Source of the DNA: an uncultured Actinomycetota bacterium
GTDB lineage: Bacteria; Actinomycetota; Actinomycetes; Propionibacteriales; Nocardioidaceae
Direction of reading: 5' to 3'
NCBI GenBank assembly: GCA_963767095.1
Contig: CAVYCK010000011.1
Coordinates: 64,199 to 128,198 of the forward strand
DNA length: 64,000 bases
The stretch's first letter is position 1, and every line of letters starts with the position of its first letter. Under the pieces are notes generated by a model. It had not been told where the DNA came from, did no database searches, and saw nothing but the letters and a program-made list of their open reading frames with translations. Of this stretch, positions 4,731 through 64,000 are shown one piece after another. Both the position numbers and the translations under genes were made by a program.

Positions 4731-6429
4731 ACGGGTCTACGACTACGTCATCGTCGGTGGCGGCTCGGCCGGCTCGGCGCTCGGCAACCGGCTCAGCGCG
4801 GGGCCGGGGACGTCGGTCCTCGTGCTCGAGGCGGGCCGCTCCGACTACATCATCGACCCGCTCGTCCACATGCCCGCGGCGCTGCCGTTCTCGATCGGCA
4901 ACCCGCTCTACGACTGGAAGTACGAGACCGACCCCGAGCCGCACATGAACGGCCGCAGGATCGCCCACGCGCGCGGCAAGGTTCTCGGTGGCAGCAGCTC
5001 GATCAACGGCATGATCTTCCAGCGCGGCAACCCCATGGACTTCGAGCGCTGGGCGGGTGACCCGGGCATGGAGACCTGGGACTTCCGGCACTGCCTGCCC
5101 TACTTCAAGCGCATGGAGACCCGTCTCGACGACAACGGGCGCCCCGCGCCCGACGACTGGCGCGGCGGTGACGGGCCGCTCGTGCTCGAGCGCGGCCCGG
5201 CGAAGAACCCGCTCTTCGACGCGTTCTTCAAGGCGTGCGAGGAGGCCGGCTACCCGCTGACCGACGACGTCAACGGCTATCGCCAGGAGGGCTTCGCCCG
5301 CTTCGACCGCAACATCCGCAACGGCCGCCGCCTCTCCGCTGCCCGCGCCTACCTGCACCCGGTGATGCGCCGGACGAACCTCAAGGTCGAGACGCTCTCG
5401 TTCGTCACCGGCATCCGGTTCGAGGGCAAGCGCGCTGTCGGCGTCGACTACCGGCGCGGCGGCGTACGCCGATCGGTGCGGGCCGGCGAGGTGATCCTGT
5501 GCGGTGGGGCGATCGCGAGCCCGCAGCTGATGCAGCTCTCGGGTGTCGGCGACCCCGACCTGCTCCGCCCGCTGGGCATCCCCGTCGTGCACGACCTTCC
5601 CGGGGTCGGCGCCAACCTGCAGGACCACCTCGAGGTCTACATCCAGTACGCCTCCAAGCAGCCGGTGTCGATCGCGCCCGGCCTGGCCTGGCACCAGCGG
5701 CCGAAGATCGCCTTCGACTGGCTGTTCCGGCACCAGGGCCTCGGCGCCACCAACCACTTCGAGGGCGGTGGGTTCTGCCGGAGCAACGACGCGGTCGGCT
5801 GGCCCAACCTGATGTTCCACTTCCTGCCGATCGCGATCCGCTACGACGGCACGTCGCCGACGAAGGGCCACGGCTACCAGGTGCACGTCGGCCCGATGTA
5901 CGCCGACACCCGCGGCCACGTCCGGATCAGGAGCACCGACCCGCGGATGCACCCGAGCATGGTCTTCAACTACCTCTCGACGCCGACCGACCGCAAGGAG
6001 TGGGTGGAGGCGATCCGCACGGCGCGGCAGATCCTCAACCAGCCGGCGTTCGCGCCGTACAACGACGGCGAGCTCTCGCCCGGACCCTCGGTCGAGACCG
6101 ACGAGGAGATCCTCGACTGGGTACGCGCCGACGCCGAGACCGCCCTGCACCCCTCCTGCACTGCCAAGATGGGCACCGAGGAGGGCTCCGTGACCGATCC
6201 GCTGACGATGAAGGTGCACGGCCTCGAAGGGCTTCGCGTCGTCGACGCCTCCGTCTTCCCGTACGTCACCAACGGCAACATCTACGCACCGGTGATGATG
6301 GTGGCCGAGAAGGCCGCCGACCTGATCCTCGGAAACACCCCGCTCGCGCCCGCCACGGTCCCGTACTACCGGCATGGTGCCGGCATGCCGCTGTGGCCAG
6401 GCGACCATCACGAGGAGGCCCCAGCATGA
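4723..6429 (+). CDS. betA: Choline dehydrogenase (GMC oxidoreductase)
   Basis: [67 protein letters not shown]. Confidence 0.93.
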
Positions 6430-61408: not shown

Positions 61409-62414
61409 ATGCGTCCTCGGCTCCTGGGTCTGATGGCCCGCCAGCACGGTCTGGTGGCCGGCCGCCAGGCGACCGCGCACGACCTCACGCCTCGACAGGT
61501 CGCGCGGCTGGTGAGCGACGGCAGCTGGGTGCGCGTCCGGCGGGGTGTGTACGCCGACGGCGAGGTGTGGGCCGCGGCCGACCCGCTCCGCGGCCGGCCC
61601 CTGCTGCGCCTGCGCGCGGCTCACCTGGTGCTCGAGCTCGACCACTGGTTCAGCCACGACTCGGCGGCGCTGCTGCACGGGATCGGGCTGCTCCCGCCGG
61701 CCGGCGAGCTCATCCACGTCACCCGGCCGCGTGTCGTCGGCGACCGGACCAAGGCCGGCATCAAGCACCACGGCGCGCGCTTCTGGCCGCACCAGACGGT
61801 GCTCGTGGAGGAGCTGCCGTGCCTCGACCTGGCCCGCACCGCCGTGGACGTGGCGCGCGAGCACGGGTTCACCAACGGCGTAGCGGCCTGCGACGCGGTG
61901 CTGCGCCGCGGCGTACCCCGCTCCGCCCTCGAGGACGCCGTCGCCGCGATGTCGAGCTGGCGCCACGTGCGCAGCGTTCGCGAGATCGTCGCGATGGCCG
62001 ACCCTGGGGCGGCCAACGCGTTCGAGTCGGCCGAGCCGGGTGCTGGTCCTCGAGCTCGGCATCGGCCGGCCGATCGTCGACGCCGGCCTCACCGACGGCC
62101 ACCGGACCGTGTGGTGCCCGCTGCGGGTCGGGCGGCACGTCTTCGAGCTCGACGGTCGGCGTGAGTCCGTCGCCCACGCCGACGGCGGCCTGGCGGACGA
62201 TCCCGCGCAGGCTCTGGGGGCGGAGCAGCAGCGCCAGGACGTCGTCACCAGCTTCAAGCTCGGCGTCTCGCGGATCACCTACGCCGACCTCTTCTCGGGC
62301 CGCGCCGCCGCCAAGGCCCGGCTGCTGCGGGAGTACGCCGACACCTGCCGCCGCTTCGGCACCGACGTCCGCGACCTGGCGCGCTACAGCGTGCGCCGGA
62401 CCCGGTCCGTGTAA
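61409..62414 (+). CDS. AbiEi-like (type IV antitoxin N-terminal domain) protein with probable PD-(D/E)XK-like C-terminus (frameshift near 62035)
   Basis: QHGLV..WVRVRRGVY, SHDSAALLHG, ARTAVDVAR, FES, FELDG, EQQRQD, RITYADL. Confidence 0.75.
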
Positions 62415-62600: not shown

Positions 62601-63593
62601 ATGCGCACCCTCGTACGACGGCTCACGCCCGCTCTCGTCCTCCCGCTGCTCCTCGTCGGCGTGAGTCCCAGCCAGGCAGCCGATACAGACCGGGCCCCGC
62701 TGCTACGTGCCACGACCGACGTCGCGTCGTCCGAGGCACCAAGCTCGGCCGACGTCACCGCGGCGCTGACCAAGGCACCGGCGACGCTCGTGCCCGACAC
62801 CGCGCCGGTCAGCGCGATCTCGCAGGATGCGGTTGTCAGCGGCACCGTCACCGTGCCCCGCGATCCCGCCCGCCCGGTGCAGCTCGGACTGGCGAGGAGC
62901 GGTCTCGCCATCGGTCTGCCGGCCACCGACGCCGACACCTCGGTCGTGCGCGACGGCGTCAGCATCTTCCAGGACGCCGCGGCGGCGACGTCGTACGCCG
63001 TCAACCCGCTCGCCGGCGGAAGCGCGCAGTTCCTCGTCGCGATCGGGGGTTCGGACTCGCCCGAGGAGCACGCCTTCCCGATCGACGTCCCCGCCGGCGC
63101 GCTGCTGACCCTTACCGAGGACGGCGGCGCCCAGGTGGCTGGCGCCGACGGCTCGATGCTCGCCAGCATCCCAGCTCCGTGGGCGCGAGATGCGAACGGC
63201 CGTGCGATCCCCACGCACTTCACGATCGTCGACGGCGCGCTGGTCCAAATCGTCGAGCACAAGGGCTCCGGCGCCGCCTACCCAGTCCTCGCCGACCCGA
63301 GCATCTTCTCCTGCGACGCTTGGACCGCAACCTGCGTGAAGTTCACCAAGGCGGAGACGGTCGCGATTTCCAAGTACGCCAGCCCCGGTGTCGTTGGTGC
63401 GTTCGTCTACGCCGGCGCGGTGTGCGGCAAGATCCCGGTGCCGGTAGTGGCGGGAGGCTGCGCGCTCTACGTCAGCGTCTACTCCTACCTCCTGTCGAGG
63501 AGCTTCGACGGGGCCGCCGGAAGCGGAAAGTGCGTCGAAATGCACTTCTCAAGGATCGGAGCGCCGTTGTGGTGGAAGACGGAGTCGTGCTGA
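62601..63593 (+). CDS. Secreted precursor: signal peptide, pro-like domain ending YPVLADP, and a 97-aa Cys-rich hydrophobic C-terminal module
   Basis: MRTLVRR..SPSQA signal; APWARDANG..PTHF..LVQ.VEH..YPVLADP; six Cys after ADP. Confidence 0.75.
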   Translation: MRTLVRRLTPALVLPLLLVGVSPSQAADTDRAPLLRATTDVASSEAPSSADVTAALTKAPATLVPDTAPVSAISQDAVVSGTVTVPRDPARPVQLGLARSGLAIGLPATDADTSVVRDGVSIFQDAAAATSYAVNPLAGGSAQFLVAIGGSDSPEEHAFPIDVPAGALLTLTEDGGAQVAGADGSMLASIPAPWARDANGRAIPTHFTIVDGALVQIVEHKGSGAAYPVLADPSIFSCDAWTATCVKFTKAETVAISKYASPGVVGAFVYAGAVCGKIPVPVVAGGCALYVSVYSYLLSRSFDGAAGSGKCVEMHFSRIGAPLWWKTESC

Positions 63594-63790
63594 GAGACCC
63601 TGACGTACGACGCCGGCTCGCCATCGCCAGCACCGGTGCAGCGATAGCTCTGGTGGTCATCGTCGTCTTCTTCACACCTGAATCCCCACGCCAGTGGAGC
63701 ATGGCGGTGTTGCTCACCGGCGGGTTGGTCGTCGGCACCTGGATCAGCGAGGCGTTCTCGGCGCGAAAGAAGCGCCGCCAGCAACACTGA
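63587..63790 (+). CDS. Small basic two-TM membrane protein (candidate immunity protein)
   Basis: GTG overlaps the upstream stop; two hydrophobic helices; C-terminal ARKKRRQQH. Confidence 0.6.
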   Translation: MLRDPDVRRRLAIASTGAAIALVVIVVFFTPESPRQWSMAVLLTGGLVVGTWISEAFSARKKRRQQH

Positions 63791-64000
63791 CGGGGTGGAG
63801 CTTCGGGCACACCGGCTGCCAAGAACAGCCGGTGTGCCCGATGGGTGAGCGATGGTCGGAGTCTCCGCGACGCTTGGGGTCTGCCTCGAGGTTGGTGGAT
63901 GCGTGATCCGATGTTCATCAGGCTCGCGGCATGGATCGTGCGGTCCCCCATGTCGCGTTCTCGGCGGTCCACATCGCGAGCGTGATGCTGGGAATCTACG

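What the first reader, a model, noticed from the sequence alone, without database searches (positions are those of the whole stretch)
62601..63790. Candidate secreted pro-toxin/bacteriocin with a swappable C-terminus and an overlapping immunity gene
Seen: a Sec signal peptide, then a Cys-free acidic region of about 200 aa ending in APWARDANG...YPVLADP (ADP at 63291-63299). After it comes a 97-aa module with six Cys and a long Gly/Ala/Val hydrophobic stretch (PGVVGAFVYAGAVCGKIPVPVVAGGCALYVSVYSYLL). A 67-aa gene with two TM helices and a basic tail overlaps the stop codon. Codons in the tip and the small gene look less GC3-biased than the rest of the window (ATT, TCA, AGG, GGA, ATA), judged by eye. 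Established: carrier, motif, variable tip and a small coupled immunity gene is the layout of polymorphic toxins and processed bacteriocins. Inference: the YPxxADP region may be a pro-domain carrying interchangeable membrane-active tips in actinobacteria.
Basis: partly seen in the sequence, partly recalled or inferred. Interest (0 to 1): 0.72.

Follow-up and report, generated by a model that had tools for sequence, protein, structure and literature searches.

The report
Closticin-type carrier with swappable antibacterial tips
This soil bacterium's gene encodes a predicted secreted protein whose conserved front part, shared with a known Clostridium antibacterial protein, carries many unrelated tail pieces in thousands of relatives and is likely cut to release a toxin against rival bacteria, while a small overlapping membrane gene likely protects the producer.

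Summary
The anatomy is real; the GC3 claim for the tip is not. The 330-aa protein's ~155-aa domain ending YPVLADP is homologous to the pro-region of closticin 574-type bacteriocin precursors (E 3e-22), whose 83-residue active-peptide homologue starts exactly at the Pro of ADP. The domain has no Pfam/NCBIfam model yet hits 7,477 protein clusters. After DP, relatives carry about 20 unrelated tip types: this Cys-paired helical type, closticin-like, DUF2599, DUF4258 RNase, HNH-like, NlpC/P60, even an amylase inhibitor. 38 of 59 loci have a small membrane gene right behind (control 12 of 947); three nuclease-like tips instead precede DUF1963/Imm11-like genes. Just outside the window lie an orphan tip-end plus small-gene copy and a paralog (carrier 82%, tip 49%). 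Against: small genes track tips loosely (tip 86%, small gene 27% in the nearest named genome); the 12 closest carriers all keep this tip class; nothing was shown to be cleaved, toxic or protective. It is not BetaH/ABP (all-beta model, no neighbouring protease). Verdict: likely an undescribed, large Gram-positive polymorphic pro-bacteriocin family. The scan's notes held no earlier match.

The parts
62601..63593 (+). Precursor gene, 330 aa: signal peptide, Ala/Pro/Ser/Thr-rich linker, closticin-type pro-domain, Cys-paired tip
62601..62681 (+). Predicted Sec signal peptide (about residues 1-26/27)
   Evidence: sequence and hydropathy; no SignalP run
62826..63296 (+). Acidic all-beta pro-domain (residues about 76-232), homologous to the pro-region of closticin 574-type precursors; conserved PWAxDAxG, TxY/F, QxVxH, YPxxADP
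63294..63299 (+). Asp232-Pro233, the inferred cleavage site and the point where homology between family members ends
   Evidence: DP in 148 of 149 best representatives that reach the model end; last 83 aa of the C. beijerinckii and C. butyricum homologues start at this Pro
63297..63590 (+). Predicted mature tip, 98 aa, 10.3 kDa, pI 8.65; model beta-beta-4 helices-beta-beta; inferred disulfides 238-245, 275-287, 311-330
   Evidence: no fold match
63587..63790 (+). 67-aa two-helix membrane protein with basic tail, overlapping the precursor's end; candidate immunity protein
63803..63841 (.). Inverted repeat just downstream of the small gene (possible terminator); copied with the orphan cassette
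   Evidence: self-comparison
63899..64000 (+). Start of a frameshifted small hydrophobic ORF running past the window end; possible decayed extra immunity-type gene
   Evidence: translation; not tested further

Best explanation
The gene likely encodes a secreted pro-bacteriocin of a polymorphic family: a conserved closticin 574-type pro-domain is followed at Asp-Pro by an exchangeable tip, which is predicted to be cut off as a 98-residue disulfide-stapled cationic protein that would damage the membrane or envelope of related Gram-positive bacteria, while the overlapping two-helix membrane gene likely gives immunity. Shown: homology of the pro-domain to closticin-type precursors, near-invariant DP, unrelated tips on the same carrier, coupling to a downstream small membrane gene, orphan cassettes, purifying selection. 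Inferred: Sec export; disulfide formation outside the cell; the acidic pro-domain (pI 4.3) keeping the basic tip (pI 8.65) folded and inactive; cleavage at D232|P233 without a dedicated protease (self- or acid-assisted, or by a general secreted protease); membrane damage by helices 264-297; protection by the small protein; turnover of tip and immunity by recombination near DP and near the tip's last codons.
For: Pro-domain alone hits a phage gene annotated 'putative closticin' (E 1e-13) and aligns to the C. beijerinckii pNF1 protein (E 3e-22) that PMC5894183 (passages) reports as homologous to closticin 574 and the C. butyricum bacteriocin over its last 83 aa; those 83 aa begin at the Pro of ADP (same length for pCBM588). 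The primer for the predicted mature closticin-like peptide in PMC10888436 (passages) encodes Pro first; that paper states closticin 574 is a 309-aa pre-protein processed to 82 aa. Tip switching; carriers 91% identical with tips 35% identical (L015/L016); carriers bearing this tip class are rejected as one clade (p-AU 9e-5, 44 of 141 rows). Coupling: 38 of 59 loci with a 40-110-aa hydrophobic ORF starting -14 to +45 nt from the stop, 19 of 20 among six-Cys tips of 90-107 aa, against 12 of 947 control genes; nuclease-like tips are followed by soluble DUF1963 (E 1e-7 and 2e-4) or Imm11-like (E 7e-4) genes. Orphans: copy of the last 14 tip codons plus small gene (93%) and a paralog next to the window; arrays of 2-3 small genes in genus g44, e.g. 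L015 keeps a 92% copy of the small gene that is cognate to L008's different tip. Carriers net negative in 96% and tips net positive in 89% of 144. No S8 peptidase on the 188-kb contig or among 74 neighbours of 14 loci.
Against: Fine-scale co-variation is weak: L057 has a tip 86% identical to this one but a small gene only 27% identical, closer to the paralog's (44%); L093 tip 75%, small gene 37%; g44 tips 80-84% alike have small genes 28-53% alike; overall Spearman 0.42 on non-independent pairs. The 12 nearest carriers all bear this tip class, so local change is divergence, not swapping. The domain also heads non-toxic or ambiguous cargo (amylase-inhibitor domain) and giant NHL/Ig/RHS/amidase proteins, so the carrier alone does not prove toxicity. 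The tip is not homologous to the closticin-type mature peptide. A cell-free-made Bacillus closticin-like peptide showed no activity on two indicators (PMC10888436). pCBM588 has no small gene annotated directly behind its bacteriocin gene. In the two-domain model the VLAD strand and the first tip strands fall inside the range aligned to beta-sandwich folds, so the tip might stay bound.
Confidence: 0.68

Rival explanations
1. The domain is a general export and folding chaperone (pro-domain) for small disulfide-bonded secreted proteins, and this tip is a non-toxic cargo such as an enzyme inhibitor or signal; the small membrane protein is its receptor or export helper.
For: One relative carries an alpha-amylase-inhibitor domain (P0188, E 8e-6); the domain also begins giant surface proteins; small genes do not track tips tightly; tip hydrophobicity is moderate; tip has no toxin-family or fold match.
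Against: Orphan arrays of small genes with tip-end remnants, and soluble DUF1963/Imm11-like partners behind nuclease-like tips, are the pattern of conflict systems; the only tested members are bacteriocins.
Confidence: 0.15
2. It is an antibacterial toxin, but the beta-sandwich is a targeting (glycan-binding) domain that stays attached or bound and delivers the tip to the target surface, rather than a discarded pro-domain.
For: The carrier's best fold matches are galactose-mutarotase-like supersandwiches of carbohydrate-active enzymes and the YidC periplasmic domain (Z 9.2-9.9, rmsd 3.1-3.6, about 150-163 aligned, 6-12% identity).
Against: These Z values are tied across many unrelated entries and show only a common fold; closticin 574 is reported as an 82-aa processed peptide; DP is nearly invariant exactly at the boundary.
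Confidence: 0.1
3. The tip is a saposin-like membrane-lytic protein aimed at fungi or protists rather than bacteria, with the small gene as self-protection.
For: Weak hints only: saposin-type AOAH small subunit E 0.28, saposin-like Na-SLP-1 Z 3.2, saposin A E 4.3.
Against: All hints are below significance; the model adds four beta strands; Cys are gained in neighbouring pairs (28 rows with all six, 16 with 3-6, 13 with 5-6, 2 other, of 59), which implies 1-2, 3-4, 5-6 bonding rather than the nested saposin pattern (recalled); immunity arrays against kin tips point to bacterial rivals.
Confidence: 0.07

Closest known systems
Closticin 574 (Clostridium tyrobutyricum) and the pCBM588/pNF1 plasmid bacteriocins
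   Same: Signal peptide, homologous pro-domain ending [YF]PxxADP (E 3e-22 to pNF1 protein), about 310-330 aa precursor, C-terminal basic Cys-containing peptide of 80-100 aa starting at the Pro.
   Different: The tip here is unrelated to the closticin-type peptide, has six Cys and a beta-alpha-beta model; an overlapping two-helix gene and orphan cassettes are present; the papers seen treat closticin as a one-off class II bacteriocin, not as a member of a polymorphic family.
ABP / S8-PTS systems (BetaH toxins; PMC9424270, PMC13460014)
   Same: Sec-exported Gram-positive polymorphic toxins with an acidic N-terminal domain removed by proteolysis, basic toxin part, downstream immunity gene.
   Different: BetaH is about 120 aa, a seven-stranded sheet around a C-terminal helix with a dibasic site and an operonic S8 protease and cytoplasmic immunity. 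Here: about 155 aa, all-beta model, Asp-Pro boundary, no neighbouring S8 protease, mostly disulfide-bonded tips with membrane partners.
Gram-positive Rhs/WapA-type and NHL/Ig giant secreted proteins
   Same: Many begin with a homologue of the same domain ending YPxxxDP.
   Different: This protein has no YD repeats or other modules; the reported WapA cleavage sites in S. suis are elsewhere (PMC12704120 passages).
Polymorphic toxin systems in general (CDI, LXG, MafB; general knowledge)
   Same: Conserved N-terminus, variable C-terminus, coupled immunity gene, orphan cassettes.
   Different: Carrier domain not in Pfam, NCBIfam or PHROGs; no secretion machine or protease in the locus.

Membership tests
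Closticin 574-type precursor | Homologous pro-region ending in ADP | tested here: met
   (E 3e-22 to the pNF1 homologue; closticin 574 itself was not available for comparison)
Closticin 574-type precursor | Mature peptide homologous to closticin 574 | tested here: not met
   no alignment of the tip to the pCBM588 C-terminal 82 aa (E 89); separate clusters
Closticin 574-type precursor | Processing to a C-terminal peptide with antibacterial activity | not testable with these tools
   needs secretome MS and assays
Polymorphic toxin system | Conserved trafficking domain with unrelated C-terminal domains | tested here: met
Polymorphic toxin system | Adjacent partner gene whose type follows the tip type | tested here: met
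   class level: small membrane genes behind hydrophobic/Cys tips, DUF1963/Imm11-like behind three nuclease-like tips
Polymorphic toxin system | Strict sequence co-variation of tip and cognate immunity | tested here: inconclusive
   two pairs agree (L067/L068 92/75%, L008/L016 90/78%), others do not (L002/L057 86/27%)
Polymorphic toxin system | Orphan tip-end/immunity cassettes | tested here: met
Polymorphic toxin system | Toxicity neutralised by the partner | not testable with these tools
ABP / S8-PTS | BetaH domain (sheet wrapped round a C-terminal helix, dibasic site) | tested here: not met
   confident model (pLDDT mostly 85-97 over the domain) has 15 strands and no helix before ADP; no dibasic site at the boundary
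ABP / S8-PTS | S8 peptidase gene in the locus | tested here: not met
   6 S8 genes in the genome, none on contig C11 (genome 60% complete); none among 74 of 105 candidate neighbour ORFs from 14 loci
Saposin-like proteins | Saposin fold with nested disulfides | tested here: inconclusive
   only Z 3.2 and E 0.28-4.3 hints; Cys co-occurrence suggests sequential pairs
Rhs/WapA | YD/RHS repeats | tested here: not met
   330 aa, no Pfam or NCBIfam match

The most novel reading that the evidence does not exclude
The closticin 574 pro-region is an unrecognised self-cleaving (Asp-Pro) beta-sandwich carrier that defines one of the largest families of diffusible polymorphic toxins in Gram-positive bacteria, protease-independent, with thousands of new disulfide-stapled bacteriocins (including this new-fold six-Cys class), nucleases and wall hydrolases as cargo, and reused as the first module of Rhs-type giant proteins.
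Probability: 0.4. Interest if true: 0.85.

Novelty: new variant of a known kind. Interest (0 to 1): 0.7.

Why it matters
Diffusible protein weapons of Gram-positive bacteria are poorly charted; the recent review seen here lists T7SS, WapA-like, umbrella and ABP systems (PMC13460014, first part). This carrier has no family model, yet 7,477 clusters at 50% identity match it (4,948 at E 1e-10; the count includes giant proteins). One HMM plus the DP rule predicts the mature sequence of each cargo and its candidate immunity gene, giving a large, directly testable set of new bacteriocins from soil actinobacteria, and it would explain how closticin 574 is matured. A self-cleaving secretion domain that accepts unrelated cargo would also be a useful expression tag.

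Tried and rejected
GC3 step at 63300: rejected. Pfam, NCBIfam and PHROGs give no family for the precursor, tip or small gene above noise. PDB sequence search: nothing significant. Foldseek found no match at E 0.001 for either model; VIA-align gave the tip a best Z of 4.1, which shows neither kinship nor a new fold. ESM Atlas with a stored homologue: 29 of 30 hits unnamed clusters, one DUF4258 cluster at 0.85; no usable named hit for the tip. IMG/VR scan: none of 12 candidates confirmed, although two annotated phages carry homologues. Sequencing runs: no RNA holder listed, so expression is unknown. Promoter scan: no sigma-70-type site. The original closticin paper (PMC150056) is not held, so its experimentally determined N-terminus was not seen; that it starts with Pro is recalled, and supported here only by homologue arithmetic and a primer. 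Literature searches that found no description of this domain as a polymorphic carrier: 'closticin 574' (47 papers, 20 listed); 'closticin'+'Asp-Pro' (1); 'closticin'+'actino' (9); 'closticin, precursor, N-terminal domain, polymorphic'; 'DUF2599'; 'DUF4258'+'toxin'; 'bacteriocin'+'pCBM588'; two multi-term searches; BetaH search. Subscription papers and supplements were not searched, so absence in print is not shown. The scan's own notes: no look-alike by sequence or place, one unrelated note by words.

Full report
Observation. The GC3 step is not there (tip 0.866, carrier 0.883, p 0.71), though codon adaptation falls from carrier to tip to small gene. Both genes are under purifying selection and the junction recurs in contigs from three other studies.

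Local context. The genome (60% complete) holds two matches, both on this contig. Past the window end lie, in order, a frameshifted small hydrophobic ORF, a remnant of the upstream AbiEi-like gene into which the last 14 tip codons, the small gene (93% identical) and its hairpin are copied (C11:128762-129000), and a second full precursor (C11:129386-130372; carrier 82%, tip 49%) with its own small gene (34%). DNA identity between the two precursors is 75-93% over the pro-domain and drops to 50-68% from just after ADP. The named genome Nocardioides bigeumensis has one copy at the same chromosomal site.

The carrier. A 152-position profile from 20 carriers matches 7,477 clusters at E 0.001 and 4,948 at 1e-10. 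It is patchy: 18 of 300 family genomes with the single protein, 11 of 400 genus genomes at 1e-12, 30 of 400 phylum genomes at 1e-5, many of the last being giant proteins. No Pfam, NCBIfam or PHROGs family covers it. Among the 150 best representatives, 149 reach the model end and 148 of these end in DP; W-A-x-D-A-x-G, T, Q, H and Y are also nearly fixed. The AlphaFold model (63 sequences, mean pLDDT 86, pTM 0.66) is all-beta up to ADP and resembles galactose-mutarotase-like supersandwiches at Z 9-10 with no single best relative.

Link to a tested bacteriocin. The carrier alone hits a Paenibacillus phage gene annotated 'putative closticin' (E 1e-13), and a Nocardioides relative with a different tip hits Clostridium and Bacillus plasmid genes (17 records). 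The window protein aligns with the C. beijerinckii pNF1 protein up to ADP (E 3e-22). PMC5894183 (passages) says the last 83 residues of that protein are 81.9% and 64.6% identical to the active peptides of C. butyricum MIYAIRI 588 and closticin 574; counted on the translation, those 83 residues start at the Pro of ADP, as they do for pCBM588. PMC10888436 (passages) describes closticin 574 as a 309-aa pre-protein with a 27-aa signal, processed outside the cell to 82 aa by an unknown protease; its primer for a predicted Bacillus homologue starts with Pro, and that cell-free product was inactive on two indicators. The closticin fragment printed in PMC7690686 (passages) matches the pCBM588 protein six residues after ADP. 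The original paper was not held. The window's tip is unrelated to these peptides.

Tips. 141 tips of 40-250 aa (duplicates, frameshifted rows and short carriers dropped) form 20 single-linkage clusters; 78 join the window's class. In the independent representative set, 135 tips plus two reference tips form 18 clusters, with 53 in the window's class and 38 in the closticin class. Named cargo: DUF2599, DUF4258 (placed among colicin-like BECR RNases by a 2026 preprint, passages), HNH-like (weak WHH hit E 0.048 for one; the other two by my reading of motifs), NlpC/P60 and an alpha-amylase inhibitor. L015 and L016 have carriers 91% and tips 35% identical. On carrier trees tip classes are clustered (14 changes against 42 when shuffled) but not monophyletic: the window's class is rejected as one clade on a 44-row subset (p-AU 9e-5). 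So swaps happen, but rarely; the 12 nearest carriers all keep this class. The tip model (59 sequences, pLDDT 85) is two strands, four helices, two strands with no fold match. Cys occur in pairs across the class, implying bonds 238-245, 275-287, 311-330. Carriers are acidic and tips basic in about nine of ten cases.

Partner genes. In 38 of 59 loci (five duplicates dropped) a 40-110-aa hydrophobic ORF starts within -14 to +45 nt of the stop, 45 of 59 if larger membrane proteins count, 19 of 20 for six-Cys tips of 90-107 aa, against 12 of 947 crude control genes of this genome (kin are not independent). Three nuclease-like tips are followed instead by soluble DUF1963 or Imm11-like genes, two of the three below the curated cut-off. 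Genus g44 loci hold arrays of two or three small membrane genes; L015 keeps a 92% copy, and L004 a 75% copy, of the gene that sits behind L008's different tip. Against strict cognate pairing, L057 (tip 86%) and L093 (tip 75%) have small genes only 27% and 37% identical to this one; the partner may recognise a few residues, protect broadly, or have been exchanged.

Mechanism. Most likely (0.68): Sec export, oxidation, masking of the basic tip by the acidic pro-domain, cleavage at D232|P233, membrane or envelope damage by the Gly/Ala/Val helices, protection by the two-helix protein. No S8 protease lies on the contig or among 74 of 105 candidate neighbours in 14 loci, and no other peptidase family appeared at E 1e-8; with the invariance of DP this favours self- or acid-assisted cleavage, but a general protease is not excluded. 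Every step after homology and gene layout is inference. Rivals: general pro-domain with harmless cargo (0.15), retained targeting domain (0.10), saposin-like anti-eukaryote protein (0.07).

Comparison. It works like ABP/S8-PTS (PMC9424270 passages; PMC13460014 first part and passages) but fails the BetaH and protease tests. It shares the pro-region, not the peptide, with closticin 574. The domain also begins Rhs/NHL/Ig giant proteins; reported WapA cuts in S. suis lie elsewhere (PMC12704120 passages). Ten literature searches (listed under Tried and rejected; other papers seen as listings or short passages only) found no account of this domain as a polymorphic carrier; subscription papers and supplements could hold one.

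Verdict. A real toxin-immunity-like cassette and a member of a large, apparently undescribed polymorphic pro-bacteriocin family anchored by closticin 574: new variant of a known kind, interest 0.70.

Noticed in passing
window 61409-62414 (+): AbiEi_4-domain gene (E 6e-9) split by a frameshift near 62034; contigs in two other runs lack one base there, so it is a recent pseudogene or an assembly error. Pieces of the same gene recur between the two precursor copies, so it was duplicated with the cassette.
   Followed up: partly
G000:C11:128755-129060 (L001 about 4760-5060): The orphan tip-end plus small-gene copy sits inside the AbiEi-like remnant with GGATC on both sides, suggesting insertion by microhomology.
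   Followed up: partly
window 63353-63826: Tip plus small gene match soil contigs from three studies at 99-100% while flanking pieces differ by 2-10%; could be recent spread of the module, but the contigs may come from different organisms.
   Followed up: no
L089 (phage BN12) and L091 (phage Min1): Two phages carry carrier-tip genes with a downstream small gene close to their lysis genes, like moron cargo; Min1's tip is of the window's class.
   Followed up: partly
L092 (pCBM588) 482-961: A thioredoxin-family gene lies directly upstream of the closticin-type gene, fitting a need for disulfide formation in a host without a standard system.
   Followed up: no
P0188; P0020; P0217, P0259: Odd cargo or architectures: an alpha-amylase-inhibitor tip, a protein with two carrier domains in tandem, and giant Ig-repeat proteins with carrier-like domains and C-terminal amidase/CHAP domains.
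   Followed up: no
L065, L070: In two Streptomyces loci a second, Rhs-type homologue of the carrier domain lies about 1.5 kb upstream of the short carrier-tip gene.
   Followed up: no
L004, L006, L007, L008, L015, L016, L017: In genus g44 the cassette and its small-gene array occupy one site, followed in most by the same secreted lipoprotein-like hydrolase gene; a good natural panel for tip-immunity cross tests.
   Followed up: partly
L057 4621-5462: The N. bigeumensis copy is broken between signal peptide and pro-domain (two ORFs) yet keeps an intact tip and small gene.
   Followed up: no
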